Assembly: GCA_039815565.1 (NCBI GenBank)
Contig: JBCBZB010000009.1
Coordinates: forward strand, 21,461 to 85,460
Length of the DNA: 64,000 bases
Direction: 5' to 3'
From: Planctomycetota bacterium
GTDB taxonomy: Bacteria > Planctomycetota > UBA1135 > UBA2386
Under the pieces are notes generated by a model, which saw only the letters and a list, made by a program, of their open reading frames with translations, had not been told where the DNA came from and searched no databases. Every line of letters starts with the position of its first letter. Position 1 is the first letter of the stretch. The position numbers were made by a program, and so were the translations under genes. Below are positions 14,526-33,163 of this stretch, one piece after another.

Positions 14526-15548
14526 CTAGCGGCCGTCGGAGGCGCCGGGAAGCGAGGTTTCATATCCACCGTAACGGAGGGCGAACGCCCGCTGCTCGAA
14601 CTCCTCGATCGGGCGGCGCTCCAGGTCTTCCCACAGCTCTTCGGCCAGCTCGCCGAACTCCTCGGAACGGGCTTCTCCACGCTCCAGGCAAAGAAGGAGG
14701 CCGAATCGCCCACCGCTCAGTTCGAGTACCTCACTGAGATCACCTGGCTGCATGCGGATCCCCCGTTCGGCGACCGGATGCCTGAATTCGGGACCGAAGG
14801 GGCCAAGCCGTGGCGCCTCGATACCGCCGTGCTCCCGACGCAGTCGATCCGCGATGGCCTGGAGCGAGGCGCCTTTCGAGACGCTCTCGCGCGCTTCCTC
14901 GATCAAGGTCCGGTCCGAGGAAAACAGACAGCGGAGCGTGACCCGCGGTGACCTCCAGCTGATCAGACGCACCGTCCCATCACGGAGTTGTTGCCGCGCG
15001 ACATCGCGCCGAACCGCCGCCCGGTAACCCTCGACCGACAAGCCGAATCGACTGGCGAGTGACTGCTCGAACTCGTCGTCGGCGATCGTGAACTGCTCGG
15101 TCTCGATCGCGAGCTGGGTGCGGAGGCGCTCTTCGATCTCCGAGACCGAACGATCGACTCGCCCTCGGTCCAGCCGAACCCCCTGATCTTGAGCCAGAGC
15201 GGCGATCGCTTGATCGAGGAGCACCGAGTCGACCCAGGACGCGGCCTGCAACAGATCGGACTCGAGCATCCGATCGAAGACCTGCGATCGGTAGATCGTC
15301 TGCCCTTCGACCTCGCCAACCGGCAAGTCCTCGCGCGGACCAACTCGGAGAAGCTCGGGACCCAACGGTTCCTGCTCGTCACCCAGAGGGCGACGGAGGA
15401 CCAGGCGATCGATCGCCACCGGCTCGGGCCGCAGATCGACGATCGGCCTGGGCTCCAACGAATCGCCGGAGCCCGAGTGGCCACCGCCGACCGAACAACC
15501 GGTCAAGGTCGCCGCCAAGACGCACAGCGCGAGCGCGCGACGCGTCAT
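14526..15548 (-). CDS. SurA/PrsA-like parvulin-type chaperone lipoprotein
   Basis: Lipobox LTGC after ATG 15548; helical SurA-N-like region; degenerate parvulin GASLQAIA...LG...MQPGDLSEVL..GRFGLL. Confidence 0.65.
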   Translation of the reverse strand: MTRRALALCVLAATLTGCSVGGGHSGSGDSLEPRPIVDLRPEPVAIDRLVLRRPLGDEQEPLGPELLRVGPREDLPVGEVEGQTIYRSQVFDRMLESDLLQAASWVDSVLLDQAIAALAQDQGVRLDRGRVDRSVSEIEERLRTQLAIETEQFTIADDEFEQSLASRFGLSVEGYRAAVRRDVARQQLRDGTVRLISWRSPRVTLRCLFSSDRTLIEEARESVSKGASLQAIADRLRREHGGIEAPRLGPFGPEFRHPVAERGIRMQPGDLSEVLELSGGRFGLLLCLERGEARSEEFGELAEELWEDLERRPIEEFEQRAFALRYGGYETSLPGASDGR

Positions 15549-15552
15549 CGGT

Positions 15553-17109
15553 TCACCGGACGCGAATCGCACGCAGGAACTTCGTGCCATGACAGGTCGG
15601 ACACGGCAGCTGCTGCAAGCCACCATCGCCCGATGAGGAAACGCTCGTGATGAAACCACGGGCCGCACAGGTCGGACACGGGACCGCGACCGCGCGGCGG
15701 ATCTCGAGCTGCCCGCTGAACTCCGCGAAGTAGGCCTGAAGCCAAGACTGACGCTCGTTGCGATCCGAGGACTTCCACCAGTCCTCCGGAGACTCGTCTT
15801 CGTCTTCGGTGCTCCGAGCGCTCGCGCGACGCCCGCGCCGCTCGATCTCACGCAGCTGACGAACGAATCGTTCGAGCTCAGGGTCGGCCTCCTCATCGTT
15901 GGTCGCTCCACCACCGGCTCGATCGGTCCCGGCAATCACGGCATCCTCGCCGAGCACCCAAGATCCGAAGTCGTAGCCGAAGAACTTCGAGAACGGACGA
16001 CGGCCGAACTCCGAACGCCGGGACCAGAGCTCCGCGACGGCGTCTGCGTCGAGTTCCACCCCCTTGTTGCGGCGCATCAGTCGCTCGGAGATCCGCGTGA
16101 AGACGTCGGTCGCCATTTGCTCCGACGCGTAGTCACGAGCACGCTCGAGCGTGATCTCGTCATCGCCGGCGACCGCGTAAGCAACTTCGCTGAGCGTCGT
16201 CGAGAACAGCGAGCGAACGTCGCCGCCGAGCTCGATCGTCTGAGCCTCTTCGAGCCGCAGCTTCTCCTTCTCGAACTCCGCGCGAAGGTCACTCGTCGGG
16301 AACTGCTCCTCGAACTGAGCGACCAGCTCGAAGGCCTGCGAGAAGCGCTTCCGGAACCGCTGACGACGGATGTCGGCCAGCAGATCACGCTCCTCTTTCG
16401 ACTCGATCAGCGTGTCGATGCGGGCCAGGTAGGTCGAAAGCTGTGCAGAGAACGCACCACCACCGAGTTCCTCGGCCTTCTCGTAGTGGGTCTTCGCCTG
16501 CTCGTAGAGACCGGCCCGACGGAGATTTTCCGCAAGCCGAACGTTCGCGTCGGCGTCTTCGCCCGGAGCGAAGCTCGCGAGCTCGAGCGCGTACCACTCG
16601 TCCTCGGTATAGATCTCATCCCAGCGAACTTGGATCGTCTCGTCGCTCTCGAAGCGCGCGCGCGGGACATCGGTGATCGCTCCCTTGCGCTGCACCCGGA
16701 GCGCGGTGTCCGTGCGCTCCACGATGATGCCGATGACCTCGTCGACCGAGCCTCCGGCCGCACGGAATCGGACGGCACTCGCCGCGACCGTCACTTCCGA
16801 CTCGTCACCGGTATCGATCCCGAACCGGCGACGGATGTTTTCCGCGTGCAGCTTCGAGAGATCGGTCCAGGTCAGCTCGAGCACACCGCCGTCGTCGAGT
16901 CGGCGGAGCGTCAGCCCTTCCGAGTCGGCATCGACGACCTCCGCAAGGACGACTCGTCCACTCGCCATCTGCACGACCTGCGAAGTCGCGGTCGAGACGA
17001 AGAGCATCGCCGAAGCGACTAGGACCAAGAACCCGCGGACCGCGAGAGATGTTCGGGCGCTCGCGCCACCAGGGCGGACGTTCATCGCTTGTTCGTGCAT
17101 CGTGTTCAT
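15553..17109 (-). CDS. Exported hypothetical protein with TPR-like helices and C-terminal CxxC..CxxC zinc finger
   Basis: Signal peptide; LAENLRRAGLYEQAKTHYEKA TPR-like segment; CPTCAARG...CPTCHGTK; start uncertain. Confidence 0.7.
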   Translation of the reverse strand: MNTMHEQAMNVRPGGASARTSLAVRGFLVLVASAMLFVSTATSQVVQMASGRVVLAEVVDADSEGLTLRRLDDGGVLELTWTDLSKLHAENIRRRFGIDTGDESEVTVAASAVRFRAAGGSVDEVIGIIVERTDTALRVQRKGAITDVPRARFESDETIQVRWDEIYTEDEWYALELASFAPGEDADANVRLAENLRRAGLYEQAKTHYEKAEELGGGAFSAQLSTYLARIDTLIESKEERDLLADIRRQRFRKRFSQAFELVAQFEEQFPTSDLRAEFEKEKLRLEEAQTIELGGDVRSLFSTTLSEVAYAVAGDDEITLERARDYASEQMATDVFTRISERLMRRNKGVELDADAVAELWSRRSEFGRRPFSKFFGYDFGSWVLGEDAVIAGTDRAGGGATNDEEADPELERFVRQLREIERRGRRASARSTEDEDESPEDWWKSSDRNERQSWLQAYFAEFSGQLEIRRAVAVPCPTCAARGFITSVSSSGDGGLQQLPCPTCHGTKFLRAIRVR

Positions 17110-17131
17110 GTCACTCGTTGGCTCTGGGTCC

Positions 17132-17611
17132 TCAGAAGTTCTCGGTGCGACGTCGGACCCGCTCGCGGAGCGGAACATCGCGGGCGAGCAGACGACGGAT
17201 TCGAATCCCGCTCTCCTCGCCATCGGCAAGCCAGCCGATTCTCAGAGTCGCGGCGACCAGGGTCGGCAGCTCCTCAGACACCTCGAATCGAACGGAATAA
17301 CTCAGGTCGAGGTCATCGTCGACCGGGGTCACCGGAATGGCCGGGATCGCGAGGTCTTCCTCGACCTCCCAGTCAAACGGCAATGGGTGCTCCGAAAGGT
17401 GCTCCTCCGCGACTCGGCGGAACAACTCCTCGTGCAGGAACGTGCTCCGAGCGCGCAGTTCGGTTTCTCGCCGGGTATTCGAGCCCACACCGAGGACGCC
17501 AATCAACGTCGTGGCCCCTACGACGAAGATCCCCATGGCGACCAGGATCTCGAGCAGGGTGAAGCCGGCCTCCTGCGAAGCGCCGGTCTCGAGGCGTCGG
17601 ATCTCAGACAT
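17132..17611 (-). CDS. Prepilin-type protein (GspI/PilV-like minor pilin)
   Basis: Class III signal AG|FTLLEILVAMGIF. Confidence 0.85.
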   Translation of the reverse strand: MSEIRRLETGASQEAGFTLLEILVAMGIFVVGATTLIGVLGVGSNTRRETELRARSTFLHEELFRRVAEEHLSEHPLPFDWEVEEDLAIPAIPVTPVDDDLDLSYSVRFEVSEELPTLVAATLRIGWLADGEESGIRIRRLLARDVPLRERVRRRTENF

Positions 17612-18785
17612 CGCCTTCCCTCCCGTGCAGCAGGGGAATCGTCAACTGGACCTCGCGACCGATCCGAACGTCCGTGCCGGAGGAATGCTCCGCAGCCCGA
17701 GTCCCACGGCCGGCGCGACGCACGCGCAGGTTCGAGCCGAGGATCGAATCGATCTGCATCCACTCGGAACCGACCTTGATCCACTCGACCTCCTCGAGTT
17801 CTTCCGGAGCCACAACCCGGATCTCGAGACTGGTCCGATCGACGCCGCCCGAAAGGAAGGTCTTGGCTGCGATCTCCGGACCACGCGAGACCACGATCGT
17901 CAGCCGCAGATAGTGCGGGTAGAGGTCGTCCCGAGGATCGAGCAGACTCTCGTCCGATCGGTCGTAGCCGAAGGCCTGGGACTGATCCTCGGGAAGAGTC
18001 AGCGCGCGTGCGGAATCCCAGACTCGTCGTGGGCCGGACTCACCCGGCGAAGACCAACGACGCGTGTTCTGCGACCAGCACTCGATCCCGAAGTAGAGCA
18101 GCGACTGAGAGATCTTGCGCGCGCCCTGCGTCTCGACACGCTGGTTGAACTCCAGGTCCTCGGGCAGCGCGAGTTCGACGAGGAACAGCTCATCATCGAG
18201 ACGACTCTCCTCGATCGTCAATCGGCGCTTCAGGTAGAGGTCGAGGAACACTCCGTCCTTGTCGCTCGGCCACGAGAACAGCATGAGCTCCCCCCGTCCG
18301 GTCGCTGCGAGAGGCACCTCGAACTCCTCCGCGTCGTCGGTCGTCAGGCCTTCGTCGTCTTCGTACCCAAGTGCTCGACGCAGCTCCTGCAGCAGTCGCG
18401 CTTCGAGCCCGCGCTCCAGGCGGGCGGTCGAACGGAGAACCTGAACGGTGACCGGAACCGAATCATCGATTCCGAGAGCCCCCTGCTCCGGGACTGCCCC
18501 GCCGGTGACCTCGTAGAGAAGGAAGCGAGCGTCCGGGTAGGCCTCTCCGGCATCGGAGGACGCCCGTGGACCCTCGAGCTGCTGGACGAGGTCCCGCGCC
18601 AGACTCGCAGCGGCGAGCGAGCGGTCAGACAGATCCCGCCCCTCTTCGCCGCGCTGGTAGATCGAGCCACCAGACGCCAGGAGCTGAACCAGCAAGCCGA
18701 GAAGGCCCGCGAGAAGCCCCATCACGACGACGAGTTCGAGCAGCGTGAAGCCGCCGTCCGAATGTTCACTCGGCCGGCTCTTCAT
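17604..18785 (-). CDS. Prepilin-type protein (GspJ/PilW-like minor pilin)
   Basis: GG|FTLLELVVVMGLL; C-terminal module WIKVGSEWMQI...RGTRAAEHSSGTDV. Confidence 0.85.
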   Translation of the reverse strand: MKSRPSEHSDGGFTLLELVVVMGLLAGLLGLLVQLLASGGSIYQRGEEGRDLSDRSLAAASLARDLVQQLEGPRASSDAGEAYPDARFLLYEVTGGAVPEQGALGIDDSVPVTVQVLRSTARLERGLEARLLQELRRALGYEDDEGLTTDDAEEFEVPLAATGRGELMLFSWPSDKDGVFLDLYLKRRLTIEESRLDDELFLVELALPEDLEFNQRVETQGARKISQSLLYFGIECWSQNTRRWSSPGESGPRRVWDSARALTLPEDQSQAFGYDRSDESLLDPRDDLYPHYLRLTIVVSRGPEIAAKTFLSGGVDRTSLEIRVVAPEELEEVEWIKVGSEWMQIDSILGSNLRVRRAGRGTRAAEHSSGTDVRIGREVQLTIPLLHGREGDV

Positions 18786-21700
18786 CGCGTGCGGACCTCC
18801 TCGGTCAGAACTCGCGGTTCGCCTTCGTAGCGAAGCAGCCACCACTTGAGGCGCGGTGCCCGCTTCCAGCCTTGCGCCAGGAACGTGACAGGGTCGAACG
18901 CGCCGGGACGGAACACGTGCATCAGTCGAGCTTGGAACTTCTGCCCGTACTGCTCGATCGGGTTGGGCTCATCGTCTGGAGCCCCGTCCTCGAAGAACCA
19001 GAGATTCGGGTCGTCCTCAGGATCCGCATCCCATCCGGCGGTGTCGTCGATTCGCACCAGAGCCCGGATGTCGACGAGTTCGTCGTCGTTCTGCTCGTTC
19101 CACAAGAACCCGTCGAACCAGGCCGGGCCGTGATCGAGGGTGATCTGCAACTTCGCGAGCTCCGGGTCATCCGCACGCTCGTGGTAGCGATCCCAATAGC
19201 GCTGCGGGAACCAGAGGACCGGCGCCCCCGCCGAATGCGCGTTGGGCGCGGTGCCGTACCGCCCGCGGAAGAGCCCTTCACTGGCAGCATCTTCGTTGGC
19301 GGGATCGTACCAGCGCGGCATGCAGAGAAGGTTGCCGGCACGGATCCAGGTGTAGTGGACCAGCTCCTGATCGATCAGAAGCGTTCCACCGCTCCGTGGC
19401 AGGGTGCCGAGGTTCAGGATCTGAAGCTCGTCCTCGTTCCGGGATGCGCCACTCGTCAGCTGCGTGGCCGGATGATGCTCGAGGAAGTGCGCGATCGCGC
19501 CCTCGGAGTGCCCTCGGGGCTCGGTGCCGAGAACGCCACGACCACCCTGTGGAACAACGACCCGCCCGGTGTTCGCATCGAACGACTCGTAGACGATCAG
19601 TTCTCCATCGACCTGCAGCATTCCGCCGTTCTGCGGGAATCGCCGATCGGCGAGCTCATCCCACTGACGCGGCCGACGTTCGACCATGTTGCCGTCCACG
19701 GTCCGGACAGAACCCAGATCACCGGCTGCGGTGATCGTGACCAGCGGGCGAACGAAAAACTCGAGCGCGTCTTCCTGGACGTTCTGATCGAGTGGACGTG
19801 GGTCGACGTGACGCACGGTCAGCGCCAACTCATCGACCGTCGCGTTGGTCGGATTGCCGAGCCCGCCGTCCGATGGTCCAAGAGTCGCCTCATCGACATC
19901 GGCGACTGGCATCTCCCCACTCGGATACTTCACCATCCGGTCGAGCAGGCGCGGATCGTTCAGGTTCTCGTCGAACGGGAACGGATCCGTGAGCCCGAGG
20001 TAGCGGGCCCGCACCGGCGCTTCGAACGCGACCAAGGTCGACTGGAACGGCCCCCATCGCGGTTGCGCGGAGAGCTCGCCCGTCTGACCGTCGACCACGT
20101 CGGTCGCGATCGTCCGGGCCGCCCAACGCACCGTATGCCACTCGGCGGTCGGTGGGTTGCCGCTGGTTCGAGCGGTCCCCTGGATCAGAGCCACCCGGTC
20201 CCCATGCCCAGCGCGCGGAGCGCTCAGGCCGAGCTGACCACTCGAGTACTCCATCCGGTGCACCGGCAGCACACGCGTCCCGGCATTCTGCGGGTGACTC
20301 GAGGTCCCGACGATCCGGCTGTCCGACTCGGTGATATCGCTCAGATCGTCACCGCGGAACTTCAAGGCCCGACGAGCGGCACCGCAGGCTGGGAAGTCGA
20401 ATTCGAGTTGGTCGATGTAGCCGACCCCGATCGAGACGTCGCCGAGAGACTGATCGAACACCGGCCACGGCGTGTCCGGGTAGAGCGAATCGATCACCAT
20501 CTGGTCGGTGACGAACTGCACCTGGGTGATGTCCAGGGCGCCCGGACCGAACAAAGCCGTCATGACGTTCTGGAACGCCTGCGTATCCGCCCGGACCACG
20601 TCGTTGCTAAGGACCGTGTCGTAGCGCACCCACTCGGTCTGCGAGCGATCGTCCGGCGTGATCTGCAACCAGTTCACCAACTCGATGTCCTGACTGACCG
20701 ATCCCGAGACCGGGATCGAGATCGGCAGAACCATCAAGTAGGAGGTCGGGATCAGGTCCCGAGGTTGGTCGCGGATGTTGAGAAACTGCGCCTCGTCCCA
20801 ATCGACGACGAAGGTGCGTGGCTCCGCGCCGTTCGGGAACCGCAGGTCCCCGGCCCGAACCTGTCCGCGCAATCCGTTGAGGGTCACCGAACGCTGAATA
20901 CCATTCAGACGGTTGCCGGCGCGGGAGCCGTAGCTGATGACCTCCATGCCTCCGATTGGAAGCGGCGGGCGAGCCGCACCAAAGTCACCCGGTTGGCCGG
21001 GACGAGGCTGCGCTGTGTAGGCGGCCGGCAGCTGGACCAAGAGCGCGAAACCACCCGAACTCGGGAACGCACTCGAGATTCGCTCGGACGCCGCTGGGGC
21101 GGGCATGTCGGCCGAGACCGGATCTGACAACTCGATCGACGCGATGTTGGTCTCGGGTCGGAAGCCCTGACCGATCAGGTCGAACTGGTTGCCGCGCTGG
21201 ACGAAGATGTCGTCGAGACCCTGCTGATTCGCGACCCGGGCGACCGCGAAGGCTCCGAGCCCGTCCTGCAGTCGAAGCTCTCCGGGCTGCAGGAATCGGT
21301 TCGGGTAGACCGGCATCGAGTAGCCGTAGAGCTCGACCGCGGCTCCGACCGGGTGCTCGGGAGAACTCGCCTCGATGTCCACCTCGCCAGCCAACTCACG
21401 AGCGGTCTGCGGATCCGCGATGTTGCTCAGGTCGAGCTGACTGAAGAACCCGATGTTCGCGCGGCAGGCCCGACCGCCCATGCCGTCGCGGTAGTCGAGG
21501 TAGAAGTTGCTCCCGTCCCTGCTGCTGTATTCGATCAGCTCACGTCCGATGCGCAACACGCCGCGCTCCGGGAAGCCATCGGTGTTCTCGACCTGGATCT
21601 GTCCAAAGCGGCTCGAATCGGTCCGGAAGTCGATCCGTCCAAAGTCGGGGGCCCAGGACGCCAAGGCCTGCGTGAGGTAGGTGCGACCCGCCGCGTTGCC

Positions 21701-25254: not shown

Positions 25255-25297
25255 GGACCTCGGCTGCGATCGCGGGACACGACCGCAGAAGCCTCAC

Positions 25298-25996
25298 TCA
25301 CTGACGCGGGTAGAAGAGATCGTCCTCGGTGTCGAACTCCTGATCCGGTCCAGCCGAGATCAGCTGGAAGCCACGCGGGTTCCGATACTCACCACTGTCG
25401 TCCTTCCACGGGCGAACCGTCATCTCCAGGCCGGGCTCATCCGCGATCTCCCGACCGACGACGGTGTCCTTGCCGGAGTAGTCGCTGCCGACCCGGCCGC
25501 TGAAGTAGGCAAACGGCGTTCCCCAGGCGTCGACGATCTCGACCCGTTCGCTGCGGCCGAGGCCGGGGATGTCTTTCGCCAGCTTGTCGCCGTCGGTGTT
25601 GGCGAACCAATCGACATTCTGCGACAGGTCACCGCTCTTCGGCGTGTTCGCGAGGTGAAGGATCAGGGACTCGATGCCGCCGTTCTTGCCGTTGCCCTTG
25701 CCGAGATCCCAGTTCTTCTGTCGGTTGCCGAAGGTCGAACCATCGTCCGGGGGGTGCTGCCCGTGGATGTCCTTGTAGGCCAGGATCATCGTCTGCAACT
25801 TGGTCGCGCGACCGGTGGTCTCAGCCTCCTGACCGCCGAGAATCGCGTTCCGCAGACTCGGTGTCAGAGCGACGATCAGCATCGAGATGATGCCGATAAC
25901 CACCAGGATCTCGACCAGGGTGAAGCCGTCCTCGACTTCGTGAGTCGTCTTCGGCTGCGTTCGCGGCTCCGAGTTCGGAAGTTCCATCGCTGTCAT
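25298..25996 (-). CDS. GspG-like major pseudopilin
   Basis: G|FTLVEILVVIGII; DAWGTPFAY and FQLISAGPDQEFDTEDD T2SS-G C-terminal motif. Confidence 0.85.
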   Translation of the reverse strand: MTAMELPNSEPRTQPKTTHEVEDGFTLVEILVVIGIISMLIVALTPSLRNAILGGQEAETTGRATKLQTMILAYKDIHGQHPPDDGSTFGNRQKNWDLGKGNGKNGGIESLILHLANTPKSGDLSQNVDWFANTDGDKLAKDIPGLGRSERVEIVDAWGTPFAYFSGRVGSDYSGKDTVVGREIADEPGLEMTVRPWKDDSGEYRNPRGFQLISAGPDQEFDTEDDLFYPRQ

Positions 25997-26030
25997 GCTC
26001 CGTTGAGATAGGGGCGGCTCGGTCCGCCGG

Positions 26031-28667
26031 TCACTCCGACCGGCGACGAACCAGGCGGAAGTCGTCGAACCGCAGATCGACGCCCGAGCCCAGGGCCCGC
26101 ATCGAGATGCGCATCGGCTTGCTGTTGCCACGAGTCCGCAGAGAACGGGTCTTCTCGATCCGATGGATCTCCCTCCCGTTCCAGCGAAGGACGAGGCCGA
26201 GCTGGGTCTGCACCTGCCCGGTTTCCGCGTCGATGACCGGAATCGCCTCGATCTCCAAGCGATGTTCACCGATCGCGGAGACTCCGCTGAGAACCTCACT
26301 CAGATCGATCGCCTGGGGACCGTCCTCATTCCGACCATCCTCGATCACGAGACGAGGGGCGAGACCGCCGACTCGACTCGTGCTGGTGTAGCCGATGTCG
26401 ATCGAGAACGGCTTGCCCTCGAGCTCGAGATGGAGACCAGCGAAGCCGGTCCCGGCCGTGGCTTTCATCTCGAGCGTGGCGGCCACGGACAGGAAGTCAC
26501 TCCCCGGCACATCCCGGGTCAACGAGCCCTCTTCTCGACGAGAGTCGTTGTTCTGGAACGCGACCCGGCCGTCGGCGATCGTCGGACGCAAGGAGCCGTC
26601 GCGCTGCCAGAACTCGCCGATCGAGTCTCGATCGAAGTCGTCGAGCACCTGCTCCTTCGCTGCGTGGTCGTCGATCCGCTGAATCGTCTCCAGCGCGAAC
26701 TGCTTGGTTTCGACCAACCGCGACGGGTCGCTGGTGATCGGCACGAGCCGCTCGCGAGCGAGACGCGCCCGTCCGCTGCGGTAGTCGAGGATCGCGAGGC
26801 CGAGGTCACCGAAGTCCGACCCGCGCTCCGCGGCACTCCGCCAAGCGCGACGTGACGGCCCCAGATTGCCGGCCTGGCTGTGCGCGAGGCCCTGCATCTC
26901 GAGGAACAAGACCGCGTCCGACTGCGAGCCGTCCAGCTCCACGAGACTGTCCGCATAGCGAGCCGCATCGGCCAGTGCCTGACCACCCTCGGCGCCGAGC
27001 TCAATCGCCCGATCGAAGAGAGCCCGCACTGACTCAGCCAGAGCCATTCCGAAGTCGTCCCGCTCGGAGAGCAGGCGACGCAAGGACTCGAGTGAGCCCA
27101 CCGGGTCTCCGTCGAGTCGAAGCCGGCGGCCAGCGAGGTAGAGCACGTAGAAGTCGTCCGGCGAAGCGGTCACCGCCCGCTGCATCGCATCGGTCGCTTC
27201 GGCGTCGTGACCGGTCAGCTCGTAGAGCACGGACATCGCGGCGAACGCACGACCACGCAGAAGCGGAGCCTCGTTGGCCGCCCGTTGCAGCCCGTACCGC
27301 GCCTGGTCGAAGTTACCGGCTCGCAGCGCAGCAGCCCCAAGAGCGAAGGCTGACGGGCCGTCCCCCTGAAGGGTCAACTCCTCGAACACCGTGATCGCCT
27401 CACTGAGTTCTCCCTTCGCATAGGCGAGCGCACCACGCAGTTGCTGAAGGCGAAGCCCATCCAGCCCTGCACCGACGCGGTCGAAGGCGGACGAGGCCGC
27501 CTCCAGCTCACCGACCGCCAAGTAGGCCTCGACGGCGATGGCGTAGACCCTGGACCGGGCCTCGGCCCCGGACAGCGTGCCGACGACCGACAGAGCGAGA
27601 TCCATCGTGGAGCGAGCTTCGACCAGACGACCACGCGCAAGGAGGAAGTCCCCGAGGGCCGACAGGTTCGCCGCGTCCCGTGGACGCAGCTCCACGGCTC
27701 GACGGAGAGACTTCTCCGCCAGCTCATCGAGCGTCAATCGAGCCGCGAGTCTTCCCCGCTCTCGATGGATGTAGTCGACGTCGGAGAGGTTCTGTTCGTC
27801 GAGCTTGCGGTAGAACTCGAACTCCCGGACCGCGTCACCCTGGGCACGCAGGACCCGCAGGGTCCATAGATGCCCGAGCTCGCTGCTGGCGAGCTCATTC
27901 AGCAAGCGTTCGGCCTGGGTCTCCGCGATCGTGTAGACGCGGGGCTCGGTTCGGGCCTGCTCGAGCAACCACTCGAGGAAGGGCTCGCGCTCCTCCACAC
28001 CACCGATGCGCTCGACGGATCGCCGACGACGCTCGATCCGGTTGTCGAGCGAATCCGCGAGGCGGACCCTCGTCGCATCCTCGATATCGATCGGTTGACC
28101 TTGGGGCACCCGCCGATCGCGGTCGTAGAACTGGAACTTGATCTTCCGGTTCGGGACCGCGTTCTCGAGCGAGAACGGATCCTGATCCACGACTCGACCG
28201 ATCAACGGCTCGCGACGCCCCTCCTGCCAGATCTTGTCGAAGAACGGATCGCTCTCGGGATCCGTGTCGACCGGCCCGGAGAGGACGACCCCCGATTCGG
28301 GCTCATAGTCGCTGAAGCTGTGCGCCGTCGGCGTGACCCCGCTGGCGACCAGTTGGTGCATCGCCCCGCTGCGCTGCCCGATGGGGAGCGGCGGGTAGAC
28401 GACCGGAAGGTCTTCGAGTCTCGGAGTCGGCAGGTCCCGCGGAGGAAGCGGAATCGCCTCGGTCGGCTCGCGGAACAGCAGACCACGAAGCCCCACCTCG
28501 CCGAGTCCCGGCATTTCCGGCAGAGGAGCCGGCGGCGGAGTGAACTCGAGCCAGTCCTTGGGGTTCGCACTGCTGCGGACCGTCTGGTCCTCGCGGCCGG
28601 TGTAGATCACCGCACCGACCACGAGGGCGAGGATGAAGAGGATCTGTTCTTTGCGCAGTTCCATCAC
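26031..28667 (-). CDS. Membrane-anchored multi-TPR protein with C-terminal beta-sandwich region
   Basis: N-terminal TM helix; many TPR-like helical pairs (e.g. LRRAVELRPRDAANLSALGDFL); C-terminal DDFRLV. Confidence 0.75.
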   Translation of the reverse strand: MMELRKEQILFILALVVGAVIYTGREDQTVRSSANPKDWLEFTPPPAPLPEMPGLGEVGLRGLLFREPTEAIPLPPRDLPTPRLEDLPVVYPPLPIGQRSGAMHQLVASGVTPTAHSFSDYEPESGVVLSGPVDTDPESDPFFDKIWQEGRREPLIGRVVDQDPFSLENAVPNRKIKFQFYDRDRRVPQGQPIDIEDATRVRLADSLDNRIERRRRSVERIGGVEEREPFLEWLLEQARTEPRVYTIAETQAERLLNELASSELGHLWTLRVLRAQGDAVREFEFYRKLDEQNLSDVDYIHRERGRLAARLTLDELAEKSLRRAVELRPRDAANLSALGDFLLARGRLVEARSTMDLALSVVGTLSGAEARSRVYAIAVEAYLAVGELEAASSAFDRVGAGLDGLRLQQLRGALAYAKGELSEAITVFEELTLQGDGPSAFALGAAALRAGNFDQARYGLQRAANEAPLLRGRAFAAMSVLYELTGHDAEATDAMQRAVTASPDDFYVLYLAGRRLRLDGDPVGSLESLRRLLSERDDFGMALAESVRALFDRAIELGAEGGQALADAARYADSLVELDGSQSDAVLFLEMQGLAHSQAGNLGPSRRAWRSAAERGSDFGDLGLAILDYRSGRARLARERLVPITSDPSRLVETKQFALETIQRIDDHAAKEQVLDDFDRDSIGEFWQRDGSLRPTIADGRVAFQNNDSRREEGSLTRDVPGSDFLSVAATLEMKATAGTGFAGLHLELEGKPFSIDIGYTSTSRVGGLAPRLVIEDGRNEDGPQAIDLSEVLSGVSAIGEHRLEIEAIPVIDAETGQVQTQLGLVLRWNGREIHRIEKTRSLRTRGNSKPMRISMRALGSGVDLRFDDFRLVRRRSE

Positions 28668-28686
28668 TTCGACCAGCTCGCGCTGG

Positions 28687-29508
28687 TCAGGACCTCCCCT
28701 CGGAAGTCGTTTCCCGGAGGAGAACGCCGCGAACGGTCACGTTCACCGTGACCGGATCGTTCAGCTGATCGCCACGATCGACCTTCAGGTCCGGCGCGAT
28801 CGTCAACACCGGCGACGCCGACTCCAGCCGGCGCAACCACTCGACGAGCGTGCGATCTCCACATCGGAAACGCATCTGCACGTCGAACACATCGATCGGT
28901 CCTTCGTCGCGACGGCGACGGTTCCGACGCCCCCGCGAAGTCGAAGTCGACTTCTTCGCGGTCACTTTCTCGATCTGCAGGAGACCGAGCGCCTCCGGAT
29001 GCTCTTGCCGCACCAAGCGCGAGGCGTCGAACAAACGCGCGACCGCGTGATCGAGAACGCAGAGAGTCGTCACCGCGCGCTCGATCTCGTCTCGACCGAC
29101 CGGAGGATCCCAGGACAGGTCTTCCTCCTCGAACTCGATGCCGTCTTCGAGTGCTTGCTCGCGCACCGCGCGACGAACTCGAGCGGCGAGCTCGGGGTAG
29201 AAGATTTCCGGGTCGCCTTTGCCGTCGAGGGTGAAGTCCTCTCCGGGAACGAGAACGGTCGAACCGCGAAGCCTCGAGGTCTCGGTCTCGAACGTCTCCC
29301 GGGTCTGAATCGCCGAATCCCGCGAGTCGCGGTCGTAGACCTCGGCACGGATGATCTGACGCCGACGAGACGAAGCCGTCTGCAGGGCATCGCCGCCGCC
29401 GAAGGCCTCATCGACGATGTAATCGGCGACGAAGAAGACTCCGAGCCCGATCAGGGCGCCCATCAAGAAGCGCTTGTTCTGTTGTAGGAAGTCCTGAGCG
29501 TCCATCAC
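28687..29508 (-). CDS. PilO/GspM-like membrane protein
   Basis: N-terminal TM, coiled coil, ferredoxin-like C-terminus; directly follows pilMN with 4-nt overlap. Confidence 0.55.
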   Translation of the reverse strand: MMDAQDFLQQNKRFLMGALIGLGVFFVADYIVDEAFGGGDALQTASSRRRQIIRAEVYDRDSRDSAIQTRETFETETSRLRGSTVLVPGEDFTLDGKGDPEIFYPELAARVRRAVREQALEDGIEFEEEDLSWDPPVGRDEIERAVTTLCVLDHAVARLFDASRLVRQEHPEALGLLQIEKVTAKKSTSTSRGRRNRRRRDEGPIDVFDVQMRFRCGDRTLVEWLRRLESASPVLTIAPDLKVDRGDQLNDPVTVNVTVRGVLLRETTSEGRS

Positions 29509-31109
29509 TCTTCCTCCTCGATCGGAGCGGCAGTCTCGGGCGGGAAGCGAACGGTCCAGGTGAAGCGTCGCTCACCGCCGGACTCACTCGTCTTGGCCAC
29601 GACCTCGAAGCCCTCGGCCTTGAAGTCGCGGAGAAAGCGCGAATACGGCGGCCCCGTACCGCTCAGATCTTTGCCACGCCCCTCGAGCACGACGACCGTC
29701 TCTTCCTCGGATCGACGCCCCTCCATCGCCTTCTGCTGGACGCGCATCGACTCGATCCAGAACTCCGGCGGCTTGACCTTCCACAGCCCCTCGAGCACCG
29801 CGATCGCGGCGTCGCGAGGCAGCGACTGAGAAGCCAAAGAGACCAACTGGTCGCCGAGCGTCGAGACCTGCTCGATCTCCTCCTCAGCCTCACGGCTGAC
29901 GCGATCGATGGAGTTCTTGCGGCTGCGCAGACGGCGGGAAGCCGACTCGGCCTTCTCCGAGAGCGCCTGCCCGTCGATCGCAGCGAGCACCAAGAGCACG
30001 ACCCCGATGAGGCCCGCAGCGAGGTTGAACACCGTCCGCTGCATGAAGCGCTGCTTCTTGCGCTGCGCCTCGGGCAGGATCGACAACTGGTAGGCATCGT
30101 CGTCGATCGCCGTGATCGCCAATCCGAGCGCAACGACGGCCTCGTTGCGGAACACCTCGAGCTGGTTGTGCGCCTCTCCGTCCAGAGCGGACGTGTCCAC
30201 GGCCTCGAAGGGATCGAACACCTCCACCGGCACCCGAAGCGCCTCGCGGAGCATCCCCTTGAGTCCGCGCAGCCGGGACGAACCACCGCTGATCAGCACC
30301 TTGTCGAATTGGAGCGTCGCATCGCCAGTCTGCTTGCGTGAGAACGCCAGCGACGACTGGATCGCCGAGACGATCAAGGATCCGGCACCGCCGGCCGCGA
30401 CGGTCACCTTCTCGCTCTGACCCGACGCGTACCGACCCCGGCTCGCCGGGTCGAGATCGAGGAGCTCGCGCTTGAGCTGCTCGGCCTTTCGATCCTTGAC
30501 CGAGAACGCTTGCGCGATCGCGTCGTCGAACACCTTGCCGCCCTGCGACAGGTTCCGCACGCAGAGCAGGTCCGTCCCGCGAGCAATCGCGAGATCGATC
30601 GTCTCGTGACCGATATCGACCAGCGCGACCACCCCATCCTCTTCCGCAGAGCCGCAGCGGAGGAAGGCGTTGAACAGCGCGACACAGCGCGGCACGTGGT
30701 GACGGGTCTTGACGCCAAGTCCGAGTGCACTCTGTGAGCCTTCGTCGAGCGCGTCGTCCCGAGCGAAAGCGAGCAGGATCGTGTCCATGCCCCCTTGCTC
30801 GTCCTCGATCGGCAGCAGGTTGTAGTCCGCCGAGAGCGCCCCACCGGTCTGCCCTGACAGGTCTTCGATCTCGAGCTCCATCAGGTTCTGGAGCTGCCAG
30901 TCCGGAGACGGCGGCACCTGGCTGTAGCGGAGCGTCATCGATCGGCCGGACAGACCGAGAACGGCCGGCCCAGACGCGCGGCCGAGATCCGCTGAGTCCT
31001 TCGGACCCGCGGCGAAGCCGGTCAGCTGAAGACCGCGTTTGCCATCCTTGAGTTCGAGCCACCGGGCCGTCTTCGACCCGAGGTCCAGCGCTTGTGCAGT
31101 CCCACTCAT
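29505..31109 (-). CDS. pilM: Pilus assembly protein PilM fused to a PilN-like domain
   Basis: Actin-like motifs ALDLGS, VDIGHE, GGKVFD, ISGGSSRLRGL, ALGLA; then LSILP (PilN INLLP-like), TM helix and periplasmic domain. Confidence 0.85.
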   Translation of the reverse strand: MSGTAQALDLGSKTARWLELKDGKRGLQLTGFAAGPKDSADLGRASGPAVLGLSGRSMTLRYSQVPPSPDWQLQNLMELEIEDLSGQTGGALSADYNLLPIEDEQGGMDTILLAFARDDALDEGSQSALGLGVKTRHHVPRCVALFNAFLRCGSAEEDGVVALVDIGHETIDLAIARGTDLLCVRNLSQGGKVFDDAIAQAFSVKDRKAEQLKRELLDLDPASRGRYASGQSEKVTVAAGGAGSLIVSAIQSSLAFSRKQTGDATLQFDKVLISGGSSRLRGLKGMLREALRVPVEVFDPFEAVDTSALDGEAHNQLEVFRNEAVVALGLAITAIDDDAYQLSILPEAQRKKQRFMQRTVFNLAAGLIGVVLLVLAAIDGQALSEKAESASRRLRSRKNSIDRVSREAEEEIEQVSTLGDQLVSLASQSLPRDAAIAVLEGLWKVKPPEFWIESMRVQQKAMEGRRSEEETVVVLEGRGKDLSGTGPPYSRFLRDFKAEGFEVVAKTSESGGERRFTWTVRFPPETAAPIEEEE

Positions 31110-33163
31110 CGGCCGTCACCTCCGTTCGAATCTTCGCTCCCCGACCCACCAGCCAACTCGTTGGCGTAGTCCGACACCCAGGACGAGATCCCAGTCCCGT
31201 TCGGAAGTTCGGCGAACGCCTCAGCGAGGATCCGGAGGCGCGCGGCATGTGCCGTGTCTCCGAGCCCTTCGCGGCGCGCGAGTGCGCCTTCGAGAGCACC
31301 GCGTAGGGCGGTCAAACTCTCGCGCGTCCCGAACCGCTCGGCTCCCAACTCGGTCTCGAGCTCGGTGAGTCCATCGAGAACCCGGCGGTATCCGACGGGT
31401 GCGTCGAACAGCGTTGCCTCGTTGGCCTTCTCCCGCAGTGAAACCGCCCGCTGCTCGATCGTGGCCAGGAGTTCCGCGTTGCGTTGTCCTGCCTCTCGGA
31501 GCGCAGCATCGTCGTGCGGATAGCGCCGGGCGACGCGGTCCAGAAGGTCGAGCTTTTCACCCGCAGTCTCGACGCTCGCGGTCTGACGCAGCAGTTCGCG
31601 CGCGCGATTCGGCGATTCGCCGAACGAACTGCGAAGTTCGATCGAAGCCGGAGCCTCAAAGCTGAGTCCGTAGCTGTCGGGAAGACGCCGACCACGGACC
31701 GTGCAAGCACCGTCGGGCACCAGCATCAAGCGCGTCCGGCCGGAACCGACCAGGACCTCGACGACGTTGACCGCCTCAAAGTCCGGCGCTGGTGCTTCGA
31801 ACTCTTCCACACCCTCGGCCCGCGTGCGGAGACTGTCCGAGCCCGGGAGCCGCAGCTCGAAGGCCCCACCGTGGACGGCGAGCTGAAAGCCGTTCTGTTC
31901 TTCGTCGAGCACACTCGGCTCGAAGGTCAGCCCGGCATCGGAGGCGACGAGGAGCGACGTATCCGCGAGCGACTGCAAGAACGGATCGTCGCCGACGATC
32001 GGCAGGACCTCGAAGACCAACGGGTCTTCGAGCATGCGGAGACCGAAGTCGGTCCCCGCGCCTTCGAGGACCGAGCCCTTGCCCGACGGCATCTCGAGAG
32101 TCTCGACCGAACCACCGGTCGTCACGAAGACATCGTCGAACGCCGCCTCGGACTCGAGCCGCGGCAGGTAGGCGAGAAGTTCCACGTGTGCCGAGCGAGC
32201 CCCCTTCGGCACACCGACCTCAAATGCGACTTCCTCGAACCCGTCTTCGGCTCGCATCGGGCCCGTACCGGTCGTCCGAGGCTCGAAGTCCTCGTCATCC
32301 TCGGCCCCCTCGAAACGGACGCGGACGATCGCCCGCGCGTCGGCGTCCGTCGACAGGTGCGCCCCGACGCGAAGCTTCGCTTCTCGCTCGACGCGAACCG
32401 GACTGTTGGTGCGCGCGATCGCGAAACCGGACTCGATCGGTGCTTCACCGTCCTCGACCTCGGGGAGCCTCGCGACGAGACCGGTCCGTCCGGTGTTGGC
32501 CGATGCTCCGAACCCGAAGTCGAAGTCGACCGCAGCGGTGACGACGGCGAGGTTCCAATGCTCCGACTCGTCGTCCTCGAAGGTCGCGACGCCCTGCCCC
32601 AGCAGGTTGCCAGAGACCTTCAACGGCTGGACCCGACGCGAGCGACCTCCGCCGCCAGGTCCGCCACCGTCGGCAAACGGATCGACGACGACGACCACAG
32701 CGACCGCAGCGACGACCAGCAGCAACACCGCCGGCAGCAGGATCGACCGCTTCTTCTTGCCGGTCAGCCGCGAGGTGTCGACCGCAGAGATCGAGACATC
32801 CTCGACTCCGTCGTGGGACGCTCCGGCGACCGGCGCGGCAGCCGCACCACCACCCGCCGGGCTGGCGGCCGACGCGCGATGGAACCGCATCCGGGTCTTG
32901 CCGACGCGGAACTCGTCGCCGTGGCCGAGCGCGATCTCCTCGATCCGCTGGCCGTCGAGGAAGGTACCGTTCGTCGAACCGACATCACGGAGGACCGGTT
33001 GCCCGTCCTCCACGACGATCTCGGCATGACGCCCGGAACACTTGTCATCATCGAGGACGAGGTCGTTCGACGGCCTGCGACCGATCGAGAACTGCTCGGA
33101 CTGCAGTTCGACGATCTGCCCGGCCCGATCCCCGTCCAGGATCTCGAGCGTGTATTCGGTCAT
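31106..33163 (-). CDS. FHA domain membrane protein with periplasmic CBM-like domain
   Basis: FHA motifs IGR, SGRHA, DVGSTNGT; one TM helix; GNLL..FE...AAFDDV beta-sandwich. Confidence 0.85.
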   Translation of the reverse strand: MTEYTLEILDGDRAGQIVELQSEQFSIGRRPSNDLVLDDDKCSGRHAEIVVEDGQPVLRDVGSTNGTFLDGQRIEEIALGHGDEFRVGKTRMRFHRASAASPAGGGAAAAPVAGASHDGVEDVSISAVDTSRLTGKKKRSILLPAVLLLVVAAVAVVVVVDPFADGGGPGGGGRSRRVQPLKVSGNLLGQGVATFEDDESEHWNLAVVTAAVDFDFGFGASANTGRTGLVARLPEVEDGEAPIESGFAIARTNSPVRVEREAKLRVGAHLSTDADARAIVRVRFEGAEDDEDFEPRTTGTGPMRAEDGFEEVAFEVGVPKGARSAHVELLAYLPRLESEAAFDDVFVTTGGSVETLEMPSGKGSVLEGAGTDFGLRMLEDPLVFEVLPIVGDDPFLQSLADTSLLVASDAGLTFEPSVLDEEQNGFQLAVHGGAFELRLPGSDSLRTRAEGVEEFEAPAPDFEAVNVVEVLVGSGRTRLMLVPDGACTVRGRRLPDSYGLSFEAPASIELRSSFGESPNRARELLRQTASVETAGEKLDLLDRVARRYPHDDAALREAGQRNAELLATIEQRAVSLREKANEATLFDAPVGYRRVLDGLTELETELGAERFGTRESLTALRGALEGALARREGLGDTAHAARLRILAEAFAELPNGTGISSWVSDYANELAGGSGSEDSNGGDGR

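What the first reader, a model, noticed from the sequence alone, without database searches (positions are those of the whole stretch)
14526..33163. Large non-canonical type IV filament/T2SS-like operon headed by an FHA protein
Seen: eleven co-oriented, closely spaced genes: FHA-TM-CBM, PilM-N fusion, PilO-like, 878-aa TPR, five prepilins in G-H-K-J-I-like order, Zn-finger TPR protein and PPIase, followed by scpB. No assembly ATPase, platform protein, secretin or prepilin peptidase is in the window. Known: T2SS/T4P need these missing parts, and tip complexes are normally small. Inference: an undescribed lineage-specific filament with a massive adhesive or lectin tip, sharing a motor encoded elsewhere (adhesion, polysaccharide capture or contact-dependent attack).
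Basis: partly seen in the sequence, partly recalled or inferred. Interest (0 to 1): 0.75.

Follow-up and report, generated by a model that had tools for sequence, protein, structure and literature searches.

The report
Planctomycete pilus operon with giant tip
This is a real, tightly packed eleven-gene operon, conserved across much of the phylum Planctomycetota, that encodes the membrane scaffold and five pilin-like subunits of a type II secretion / type IV pilus-class filament whose cap subunit is six times the usual size and carries sugar-binding-type domains, while its motor, channel and processing enzyme lie elsewhere in the genome.

Summary
Window 14526-33163 (minus strand) carries eleven coupled genes:
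- an FHA-TM protein,
- a PilM-PilN fusion,
- a PilO/GspM-like protein,
- an 878-aa TPR protein,
- a GspG-type major pseudopilin,
- a pilin-LamG protein,
- a 1,812-aa GspK-fold pilin lacking Glu+5,
- two further prepilins,
- a Zn-finger/TPR protein,
- a PrsA/SurA-like lipoprotein.

No ATPase, platform protein, secretin or prepilin peptidase lies on the 105.8-kb contig; all are encoded elsewhere.

Gene order is collinear in 10 of 10 relatives fetched and in 61 loci from uncultured Planctomycetota. The giant's C-terminal part matches 215 of 401 sampled genomes of the phylum.

AlphaFold models (pLDDT 82-83) show a complete GspK fold (Z 12.2 to GspK and XcpX). It is extended by concanavalin-like jelly rolls and by beta-barrels like a phage tail-tip protein.

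Best reading: a motor-less type IV filament module with a giant, probably glycan-binding tip, driven by a motor encoded in trans. Which motor and secretin it uses is unresolved, and its function is inferred.

All public names seen are "hypothetical protein", and my literature searches found no description. This scan flagged the same operon three times before on other genomes. It is a new variant of a known kind.

The parts
31106..33163 (-). g01: FHA domain (cytoplasmic), one TM helix (aa 139-168), periplasmic beta-sandwich plus helical tail; 685 aa
   Evidence: Pfam FHA 72.4 bits and Yop-YscD_cpl 71.3 bits, both over cut-off. TM helix. A profile of 18 homologues hits the CBM22 region of xylanase 2wys_A at E 6.5e-5 and phage fibre 8zdo_v at E 1.7e-5. 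Distant families carry two FHA domains.
29505..31109 (-). g02: PilM actin-like domain fused to a TM helix (aa 358-384) and a PilN-like periplasmic part. The architecture is GspL-like; 534 aa
   Evidence: PilM_2 65.1 bits. Best PDB matches are PilM 2ych_A at E 1.2e-17 and 3jc8 at E 2.3e-10, with no GspL hit. Best NCBIfam match is the Amuc_1101 family at 98.7 bits, far under its 650 cut-off.
28687..29508 (-). g03: bitopic PilO/GspM-like protein, 273 aa
   Evidence: Only weak matches: T2SSM_b 16.3 bits, GspM 17.7 bits, T2SSM in 1 of 4 homologues. N-terminal TM helix at aa 13-33. Its position after PilM-N is conserved.
26031..28667 (-). g04: membrane-anchored 878-aa TPR protein with a conserved C-terminal domain of about 200 aa and unknown fold
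   Evidence: TPR_2 39 bits. Profile hits to TPR proteins. The C-terminal part has no PDB or Pfam match.
25298..25996 (-). g05: GspG-type major pseudopilin with an insertion of about 70 aa, 232 aa
   Evidence: A profile of 34 homologues best hits pseudopilin GspG 5wda_A at E 5.6e-15. The match includes the C-terminal S-x-G-P-D-G...D-D-I loop. N_methyl 22.7 bits. Start codon.
24217..25254 (-). g06: prepilin (GspH-like N-terminus) with a LamG/concanavalin-like module, 345 aa
   Evidence: N_methyl 23.7 bits. Laminin_G_2 and Laminin_G_3 at 19.1 and 18.1 bits, both under cut-off. gspH 24.6 bits, under 80.
18782..24220 (-). g07: giant modular GspK-type pilin, 1,812 aa, with no Glu at +5. It has a GspK fold (aa 61-587) with two inserted beta-barrels, followed by LamG/ConA-like jelly rolls and repeated phage-tail-J-like barrels
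   Evidence: Models with pLDDT 82.4 and 83.1. VIA: GspK 3ci0_K Z 12.2 and XcpX 5vtm_X Z 12.2, next best 9.5. ConA-like matches at Z 12-14.3, and 8rk3_o at Z 10.3. T2SSK motif in 9 of 13 homologues.
17604..18785 (-). g08: prepilin of about 393 aa (GspJ position) with a C-terminal barrel motif shared with the giant
   Evidence: G|FTLLE motif. N_methyl 17.4 bits, under cut-off. A profile of 53 homologues hits the phage tip attachment protein J domain 8rk3_o at E 8.5e-4. RBS and ATG at 18785.
17132..17611 (-). g09: small GspI-like prepilin, 159 aa
   Evidence: N_methyl 23.8 bits. gspI TIGR01707 23.8 bits, under 44.35.
15553..17109 (-). g10: exported or anchored protein with TPR-like repeats and a C-terminal CPTC...CPTCHG zinc-finger motif, 518 aa
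   Evidence: DnaJ_CXXCXGXG 17.5 bits, under cut-off. Sequence. Its nearest clusters are Planctomycetota 'hypothetical protein' only.
14526..15548 (-). g11: lipoprotein (LTGC lipobox), a PrsA/SurA-like chaperone or PPIase, 340 aa
   Evidence: SurA_N_3 19.4 bits, under cut-off. Of 5 homologues, 4 have a PPIC rotamase model over its cut-off.
13495..14514 (-). scpB, 11 nt downstream on the same strand. It is a conserved neighbour and not a functional part of the filament
   Evidence: SMC_ScpB 151.8 bits. The adjacency is kept in 45 of 61 loci and in several distant families.
33412..34251 (+). rsmE-type RNA methyltransferase, divergent. It marks the upstream boundary of the operon
   Evidence: Methyltrans_RNA 124.6 bits. 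It is a conserved neighbour in 32 of 61 loci.

Best explanation
The operon encodes the subunit and scaffold half of a type IV filament machine of T2SS-like make-up.

Shown:
- g05 is a GspG-type major pseudopilin.
- g07 has a complete GspK fold and lacks Glu+5, which marks the apical subunit.
- Four further genes carry prepilin leaders.
- g02 is a PilM domain fused to a PilN-like part.
- The whole set is collinear across many Planctomycetota families and never includes a motor.

Inferred:
- The single prepilin peptidase (on contig C47) processes the five prepilins.
- g07, g08, g09 and g06 form a K-J-I-H initiation complex on which g05 polymerises.
- g01-g04 form the inner-membrane platform. The FHA domain of g01 acts as a phospho-threonine-dependent switch, and the TPR protein g04 bridges towards a secretin.
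- g10 and g11 are periplasmic folding helpers for the 197-kDa cap.
- An ATPase, platform protein and secretin encoded in trans drive the machine. By elimination the candidate motor is the pilin-less cluster of two GspE/PilB-like ATPases flanking a PilT on C35, with PilC on C110. The candidate secretins are the orphan Amuc_1098-like secretins on C62.
- The concanavalin-like modules on the cap bind glycans, which would make the filament an adhesion or polysaccharide-capture device.
For: Anatomy and coupling.

Subunit identities:
- GspG identity of g05: E 5.6e-15 to 5wda_A, including the Ca-loop motif.
- GspK fold of g07: Z 12.2 to both 3ci0_K (236 of 280 residues aligned) and 5vtm_X, next hit 9.5. 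Foldseek probability 0.99 to the XcpGHIJK model. G|FALIAVL without Glu+5 is conserved in 44 homologues.
- ConA-like/CBM folds: Z 12-14.3, and 10 Foldseek hits at E<=0.001, which are LamG-type domains or the jelly-roll binding domains of clostridial neurotoxins.
- PilM.

Conservation:
- The giant is found in 40 of 41 relatives.
- The order is collinear in 10 of 10 relatives; 5 of the 10 have all 12 genes hit.
- The 61 loci are collinear wherever the flank allows.
- 11 of 20 distant loci have 6 or more operon genes in the same order.
- 215 of 401 phylum genomes match.
- 626 representative clusters match at E<=1e-10.

Motor in trans:
- No D/E/F/peptidase hit on C141.
- 0 of 61 loci have D/E/F.

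Partition of the other loci:
- C28 holds PilT, PilB (679.2 bits against a cut-off of 675.65), PilC and a PilA-like pilin. With the PilM-N-O-secretin cluster on C125 this makes a T4aP.
- C129 holds GspD-E-F-G-H-I-J.
- C68 is Tad-like.
- That leaves the pilin-less two-ATPase/PilT cluster. In genome G429 a PilC gene follows it directly.

The two smallest genomes of the order keep the same four full-length ATPases and the same pilin clusters.
Against: - No motor or secretin could be tied to the operon. The tandem ATPase pair is also seen in 8 of 17 giant-less genomes, against 16 of 18 giant-bearing ones. It stands with its PilC in a complete giant-less genome, so it is not specific.
- C129 lacks K, L and M, which this operon has. 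In one distant family the giant sits beside a secretin that is most like the C129 GspD. Both points favour the composite-T2SS rival.
- The H, I and J labels rest on sub-threshold HMM matches or on position.
- g02 matches PilM, not GspL, so the machine is a T2SS/T4aP mosaic.
- Glycan binding is inferred from fold only.
- In 7 of 20 distant loci the giant stands in other contexts, such as ECF sigma/anti-sigma or a secretin. The giant can therefore work without the neighbouring platform genes.
Confidence: 0.6

Rival explanations
1. Composite T2SS. The operon supplies the GspK, GspL (PilM-N) and GspM (PilO-like) functions, plus accessory pseudopilins, to the GspD-E-F-G-H-I-J cluster on contig C129. 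Together they would make one type II secretion system whose periplasmic pseudopilus carries a giant cap that recognises or gates cargo.
For: - C129 encodes D, E (gspE 623.5 bits), F, G, H-, I- and J-like genes but no K, L or M.
- g05 is GspG-type and g07 has a GspK fold.
- In locus L131 a giant homologue is followed by a secretin whose best match in this genome is the C129 GspD: 121 bits, against 70.9 for the next.
Against: - Both loci carry their own G, H, I and J-type genes. That duplication is unnecessary for one machine.
- A third PilM-type gene (C30, 684 aa) could serve as the L of C129.
- Long PilM forms occur in giant-less genomes too.
- D, E and F are never adjacent to the operon: 0 of 61 loci.
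Confidence: 0.2
2. Minor-pilin and priming module of the ordinary type IVa pilus. g06-g09 would act as FimU-PilVWX equivalents, and the giant K would replace PilY1 as tip adhesin, for the pilus built by PilB/PilT/PilC/PilA (C28) and PilM-N-O-secretin (C125).
For: - Apart from C129, no other H/I/J/K-type minor pilin set was found in the 88.75%-complete genome.
- T4aP systems studied need minor pilins plus a large tip adhesin (passages of PMC13533445; listing of PMC7541494).
- K-family pilins with large adhesin inserts, such as CpaL, are known.
Against: - The operon has its own PilM-N and PilO paralogues, while the T4aP has PilM-N-O on C125.
- Its major subunit is GspG-type, not PilA-type.
- PilA-like pilins lie elsewhere, on C28, C38 and C112.
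Confidence: 0.12

Closest known systems
T2SS pseudopilus with GspK-GspI-GspJ tip complex (ETEC 3CI0; P. aeruginosa XcpVWX 5VTM) and GspG/PulG fibre (5WDA)
   Same: - The major subunit is GspG-type, including the C-terminal Ca-loop motif.
- The cap has the full GspK fold at Z 12.2 and lacks Glu+5.
- Five pseudopilins are encoded together.
- The PilM-N fusion has the domain layout of GspL.
   Different: - The K subunit is 1,812 aa. The solved GspK and XcpX chains it matched have about 260-280 residues. It carries ConA-like and phage-J-like modules.
- Gene order is G-H-K-J-I.
- There is no GspC, D, E, F or O in the locus.
- The L-equivalent matches PilM, not GspL.
- FHA, TPR, Zn-finger and PPIase genes are added.
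T4aP alignment subcomplex PilM-N-O-P with the minor-pilin/PilY1 priming complex (M. xanthus, P. aeruginosa, Neisseria)
   Same: - A PilM actin-like protein is followed by PilN- and PilO-type bitopic proteins.
- There is an I-J-K-type core with a very large tip component.
- A TPR protein is encoded in the machine.
   Different: - PilM and PilN are fused.
- There is no PilP, PilQ or PilY1 gene.
- The large tip mass is part of the K pilin itself rather than a separate PilY1.
- The major subunit is GspG-like.
- The genome has a separate canonical T4aP set.
Modular pilins (S. sanguinis PilB/PilC, CofB, ComZ, CpaL)
   Same: - A pilin module carries grafted functional modules. A concanavalin-like lectin module occurs in S. 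sanguinis PilC (passages of PMC8179133).
- CpaL is a K-family pilin with an adhesin domain (passages of PMC13533445).
   Different: - Size. The most extreme case in the 2021 survey was 860 residues, whereas this family is typically about 1,600-1,850 among the listed representatives.
- The host module is a full GspK fold with two further internal barrels.
Akkermansia Amuc_1098-Amuc_1102 pili-like cluster (Amuc_1101 PilM-like family; Amuc_1098 secretin family)
   Same: - It is a long PilM-N-type protein of the PVC superphylum. Amuc_1101 is the best NCBIfam match of g02.
- One orphan secretin on C62 best matches the Amuc_1098 family.
   Different: - Scores are far below the family cut-offs: 98.7 against 650, and 106.6 against 750.
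- Nothing seen here on that cluster mentions a giant K pilin. I saw only the search listing of PMC5332112; the rest is recalled.
FHA-TM ring or scaffold proteins of other envelope machines (T3SS SctD/YscD, T6SS TagH/Fha, gliding GltG)
   Same: A cytoplasmic FHA domain of the YscD type (71.3 bits against a cut-off of 33.2), one TM helix and a periplasmic domain, encoded at the head of a machine operon.
   Different: The full-length models score far below their cut-offs: SctD 21.7 against 86, GltG 58.7 against 650, TagH 46.4 against 120. I recall no described T2SS or T4aP with an FHA-TM component, and one search found none.

Membership tests
Type II secretion system (Gsp) | GspG-type major pseudopilin | tested here: met
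   Profile match to 5wda_A at E 5.6e-15, including the C-terminal GPDG...DDI loop. The single sequence is below the NCBIfam equivalog cut-off, 26.4 against 88.85.
Type II secretion system (Gsp) | GspK: pilin fold with alpha-domain, no Glu+5 | tested here: met
   VIA Z 12.2 to 3ci0_K and 5vtm_X, covering aa 61-587. G|FALIAVL. Pfam T2SSK is below cut-off at 22 against 24.2.
Type II secretion system (Gsp) | GspH, GspI and GspJ minor pseudopilins | tested here: inconclusive
   Only N-terminal, sub-threshold matches (gspH 24.6 against 80; gspI 23.8 against 44.35). g08 matches no J model. No fold model was made for them.
Type II secretion system (Gsp) | GspE ATPase, GspF platform, GspD secretin and GspO peptidase encoded with the pseudopilins | tested here: not met
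   None on contig C141. 0 of 61 related loci have D/E/F.
Type II secretion system (Gsp) | GspL and GspM | tested here: inconclusive
   g02 has the GspL layout but matches PilM. g03 matches GspM/T2SSM_b only weakly, at 17.7 and 16.3 bits.
Type IVa pilus (PilMNOPQ, minor pilins, PilY1) | PilM actin-like protein | tested here: met
   PilM_2 65.1 bits against 27. 2ych_A at E 1.2e-17. TIGR01175 is below cut-off at 72.5 against 133.
Type IVa pilus (PilMNOPQ, minor pilins, PilY1) | PilA-type major pilin, and PilP, PilQ and PilY1 | tested here: not met
   The major subunit is GspG-type. There is no secretin on the contig. The Pfam and NCBIfam scans of the operon proteins returned no PilP or PilY1 family. 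PilA-like pilins and PilM-N-O-secretin lie on other contigs.
Amuc_1101 family PilM-like pilus complex protein (NF045709) | Score over the equivalog cut-off | tested here: not met
   98.7 bits against a cut-off of 650.
Verru_Chthon cassette (TIGR02596-TIGR02600) | Scores over the cut-offs for proteins A-D | tested here: not met
   D 27.3 against 70, C 16.3 against 256.5, B 18.3 against 51.4. Protein A is not matched by the giant.
Modular type IV pilins (sense of PMC8179133) | N-terminal class III signal and pilin module plus extra functional module(s) | tested here: met
   g06 is a pilin with a LamG-like part (sub-threshold). g07 is a GspK fold plus ConA-like and barrel modules. The definition was read in passages.
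T3SS SctD/YscD | Full-length SctD model: FHA, TM and periplasmic ring-building motifs | tested here: not met
   Only the cytoplasmic FHA domain matches (Yop-YscD_cpl 71.3 bits). TIGR02500 scores 21.7 against 86.

The most novel reading that the evidence does not exclude
The operon defines a separate, phylum-wide class of type IV filament. A retractile GspG-type fibre, capped by a lectin-bearing cap of about 200 kDa, would be fired and retracted by the shared two-ATPase/PilT motor through one of the unusually large orphan secretins. It would fish polysaccharides from the surroundings and pull them to or through the outer membrane. That would be a molecular basis for the macromolecule capture long proposed for planctomycetes. 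The FHA protein would gate firing through Ser/Thr-kinase signalling.
Probability: 0.1. Interest if true: 0.9.

Novelty: new variant of a known kind. Interest (0 to 1): 0.62.

Why it matters
Type IV filaments are among the most widespread bacterial nanomachines. Their versatility is thought to come from what sits at the tip.

This family puts an apical pilin of about 1,800 residues on a T2SS-type fibre. That is more than twice the largest modular pilin noted in a 2021 survey (passages). The protein combines a GspK fold, lectin-type folds and phage-tail-type barrels.

The family is kept in over half of the sampled Planctomycetota genomes, a phylum important in marine polysaccharide turnover, yet every public name seen is 'hypothetical protein'.

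The operon is also a clean natural case of a filament module that is always separated from its motor. That raises the question of how one motor is matched to several pilin and platform sets, and what a phospho-threonine reader (FHA) does in such a machine.

Tried and rejected
- **Complex prediction.** I submitted g07 aa 65-588, g09 and g08, with g08 as the partner. The verdict was 'no answer' (score 0.16, mark 0.32). It counts neither way.
- **Expression.** No RNA holder is listed for window 18782-28667. No reads were laid.
- **Motor by co-occurrence.** A tandem pair of full-length ATPase genes is seen in 16 of 18 giant-bearing and 8 of 17 giant-less genomes (one more at 5.2 kb spacing; 41 matches were not listed). 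The pair and its PilC are present in a complete giant-less genome. This does not discriminate.
- **PilM_2 in five giant-less genomes.** Long PilM forms are common, so they are no marker.
- **Foldseek on the N-terminal model.** No hit at E<=0.001. The GspK match came from VIA-align.
- **Profile of the whole giant against PDB sequences.** Only GspK at E 0.095.
- **g04 C-terminal domain.** No PDB or Pfam match.
- **Atlas searches.** The giant gave unnamed clusters, one with Laminin_G_3 in 19% of its members. g10 gave Planctomycetota 'hypothetical' clusters.
- **Literature.** Searches found no paper on this operon.
- **Supplements.** Those of PMC8179133 held as text have no Planctomycetes entry. 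Its Dataset S1 was therefore not seen and may list relatives of g06.
- **Verru_Chthon and Amuc_1101 membership.** Rejected on scores.
- **Pseudogene or relic reading.** Rejected. The frames are open and conserved in 40 of 41 relatives.
- **Failed scripts.** ended in a division error and timed out. Both were redone.


Full report
**Where the window lies.** The window is G000:C141:21461-85460 of a 147-contig genome that is 88.75% complete. Titles of related records name uncultured Planctomycetota in nearly all of 61 loci. A few short contigs carry other or generic labels.

**The observation.** On the minus strand between 33163 and 14526 lie eleven genes.
- Junctions are 4-nt ATGA/GTGA overlaps (g01/g02, g02/g03, g06/g07, g07/g08 with the ATG at 18785), an 8-nt overlap (g08/g09), or gaps of 4-43 nt.
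- Several starts have GGAGG-like sites upstream.
- scpB follows 11 nt after g11. A divergent rsmE-type gene bounds the upstream end.
- Family scans give FHA/YscD-type FHA (g01), PilM_2 (g02), weak GspM/T2SSM_b (g03), TPR (g04) and the prepilin N-methyl motif (g05, g06, g09 over cut-off; g08 under).
- They also give sub-threshold LamG (g06), T2SSK/GspK (g07), DnaJ-type zinc finger (g10) and SurA_N (g11).
- Of 5 g11 homologues, 4 have a PPIC rotamase model over its cut-off.

**The missing parts.** Genome-wide scans place the following:
- T2SSE-family ATPases on C28, C35, C129, C68, C67, C47 and C114;
- secretins on C129, C47, C68 and C62;
- T2SSF on C28, C110, C129 and C68;
- the single Peptidase_A24 on C47.

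None is on C141. The other 29 window ORFs scanned are housekeeping or unrelated.

**Conservation.**
- The giant g07 is found in 40 of 41 genomes of the same family and order. The one miss is 80% complete.
- In 10 of 10 relatives fetched, the tblastn hits are collinear with the window. Five have all twelve genes (g01-g11 plus scpB). The other five lack hits for one to three of the small, fast-evolving genes.
- In 61 loci from public genomes the hits are again collinear. Counts are g07 61, g08 56, g10 53, g09 52, g06 45, scpB 45, g11 44, g05 42, g04 41, g02 39, g03 39 and g01 38. Most missing hits fall in loci cut short by contig ends. None of the 61 has a GspD/E/F homologue within 10 kb.
- A profile of the giant's C-terminal 1,152 residues matches 215 of 401 genomes drawn from the phylum (129 of 243 high-quality). 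Some large families score 0 of 20 and 0 of 23.
- Of 20 distant loci, 11 keep six or more operon genes in order, often with a two-FHA form of g01. In 7 the giant stands with at most three detectable operon genes. Contexts there include ECF sigma plus FecR-type anti-sigma, a following secretin, or TPR-peptidase and kinases.
- Against 1.84 billion representatives the profile finds 842 clusters at E<=0.001, 626 at <=1e-10 and 396 at <=1e-30. Most listed proteins are about 1,600-1,850 aa.
- Every name given among the 120 best of 239 relatives is 'hypothetical protein'.

**What the parts are.**
- *g05.* A profile of 34 homologues best matches the GspG pseudopilus subunit (5wda_A, E 5.6e-15). The match covers both the N-terminal helix and the C-terminal S-x-G-P-D-G...D-D-I loop.
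- *g07, N-terminal model.* Two AlphaFold models were built from 45-row alignments. Residues 1-700 give pLDDT 82.4 and pTM 0.83. The all-against-representatives structural search puts XcpX (5vtm_X, Z 12.2, rmsd 3.2, 217 aligned) and GspK (3ci0_K, Z 12.2, 236 of 280 aligned) first. They span model residues 61-587, and the next hit is at Z 9.5. Two inserted barrels (about aa 140-240 and 297-394) resemble small barrels of phage tail proteins and translation factors.
- *g07, C-terminal model.* Residues 661-1812 give pLDDT 83.1 and pTM 0.81. The list is filled by concanavalin-like jelly rolls at Z 12-14.3: arabinan-binding domain 4 of AbnA, CBM40, and LamG domains of agrin, neurexin and laminin. A phage JBD30 baseplate protein also matches (8rk3_o, Z 10.3, 81 aligned).
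- *g08.* A sequence profile hits the same phage 'tip attachment protein J' region (E 8.5e-4). Its consensus carries the motif EW.RY...G..L.GL.RG.RGT.A..H..G. By eye, that motif recurs about five times in the giant.
- *g02.* It matches PilM structures (2ych_A, E 1.2e-17) and no GspL.
- *Whole operon.* The content is T2SS-like in its pilins and T4aP-like in its PilM.

**The other filament loci of the genome.**
- C129: GspD, GspE (623.5 bits to the gspE model), GspF, GspG and H-, I- and J-like prepilins, but no K, L or M.
- C28: PilT, PilB (679.2 bits, over the 675.65 cut-off), PilC, an unknown 314-aa protein and a PilA-like pilin.
- C125: PilM, a PilN-position gene with no family match, PilO and the start of a secretin.
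- C35: two GspE/PilB-like ATPases flanking a PilT. One carries a c-di-GMP MshEN motif (39.2 against 38). There are no pilins. PilC is on C110, and in genome G429 it follows the ATPase cluster directly.
- C30: a third, long PilM-like gene after an ECF sigma/anti-sigma pair.
- C68: a Tad-like locus.
- C62: two large orphan secretins. One best matches the Amuc_1098 family at 106.6 bits, far under its cut-off.
- A motif scan finds 14 plausible prepilins. The only H/I/J/K-type sets are those of C129 and of this operon.
- The two smallest genomes of the order keep four full-length ATPases and the same pilin clusters.

**Which motor.** By elimination, the pilin-less two-ATPase/PilT(-PilC) cluster and an orphan secretin are the candidates. 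This is inference only.
- The tandem ATPase pair is seen in 16 of 18 giant-bearing genomes but also in 8 of 17 giant-less ones.
- It stands with its PilC in a complete giant-less genome.
- The rival that this operon supplies K/L/M to the C129 T2SS is kept at 0.2. C129 lacks exactly these parts, and in one distant family the giant is followed by a secretin most like the C129 GspD. However, both loci have their own G, H, I and J.
- The rival that it is the minor-pilin module of the T4aP is kept at 0.12.

**Comparison with what is known.**
[quoted passage not shown] They include a concanavalin-like lectin module in S. sanguinis PilC. The most extreme case noted has 860 residues.
- Passages of PMC13533445 describe K-family pilins as the apical subunit lacking Glu+5. 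They describe a C-terminal beta-strand supplied in cis (GspK, CpaL) or in trans (PilY1).
- In the giant, the GspK fold appears complete by residue ~587.
- The last ten residues of the protein are nearly invariant (R1803, L1805, E1807, R1812), yet they are disordered in the isolated C-terminal model. Whether they dock on the pilin core was not testable here.

**Earlier notes of this scan.** Three notes on other genomes read the same operon the same way. They are not independent evidence. I re-tested their claims on this genome. I add:
- the GspG identity of g05;
- the fold evidence for g07;
- the phage-J-like repeat shared with g08;
- the phylum-level count;
- the inventory of candidate partners.

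**Verdict.** The operon is real and widely conserved. No description turned up in the literature I searched. It is a T2SS/T4aP-mosaic filament module with a giant modular GspK cap and no motor of its own. Its function and its partners remain open.

Noticed in passing
G000:C62:93648-94775 (L140:17648-18775, minus): A MamK-family actin-like protein scores over the NCBIfam cut-off (414 against 400). It lies next to two large orphan secretins (898 and 855 aa), a TolQ/ExbB-like gene and a YbgF-like TPR gene. The secretin pair recurs in five relatives.
   Followed up: partly
G000:C115:95073-98600: A second very large prepilin. It has a canonical G|FTLVE leader with Glu+5, followed by about 1,175 residues. 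Its neighbours were not annotated.
   Followed up: no
G000:C48:49386-50811: Two tandem 212-residue prepilins whose N-termini closely resemble g05. They look like extra GspG-type paralogues away from any machine genes.
   Followed up: no
window 13495-14514: ScpB carries an acidic N-terminal extension of about 170 residues. It sits 11 nt downstream of the operon on the same strand. The adjacency is kept in 45 of 61 loci and in several distant families. No scpA was noticed beside it.
   Followed up: partly
window 8065-11487: A single 1,140-aa ORF combines ResB-like and CcsA-type cytochrome c assembly domains, apparently a fusion of the two system II components.
   Followed up: no
L121:4679-15528 and L129:7195-15132: In two other families the giant GspK-like gene (about 1,860 aa) stands alone. 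It lies directly downstream of an ECF sigma factor, and in L129 a FecR-type anti-sigma gene sits between the two.
   Followed up: partly
L131:10919-18176: In a 2.6-Mb genome a 1,373-aa giant homologue is followed by a 380-aa protein and a 689-aa secretin with three Secretin_N domains. That secretin's best match in this genome is the C129 GspD.
   Followed up: partly
L137 (G338:C10:65900-85899): Two separate stretches match the C-terminal part of the giant (around 4987-6147 and 9337-10125, with further hits up to 13140). This suggests two tandem giant-type genes in that genome.
   Followed up: no
window 17604-24220; L051-L134: A small barrel motif (EW.RY...G..L.GL.RG.RGT.A..H..G) is seen in the g08 consensus and, by eye, recurs in the giant. 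It matches the tip attachment protein J domain of a phage baseplate by profile (E 8.5e-4) and by structure (Z 8.5-10.3). Some homologues hit Pfam Rcc01698_C.
   Followed up: partly
G000:C35:633-6312 (L118): A pilin-less motor cluster: a DUF1573 protein, a GspE/PilB-like ATPase, PilT, and a second ATPase with a c-di-GMP-binding MshEN motif over cut-off. A Ser/Thr kinase lies 3 kb away.
   Followed up: partly
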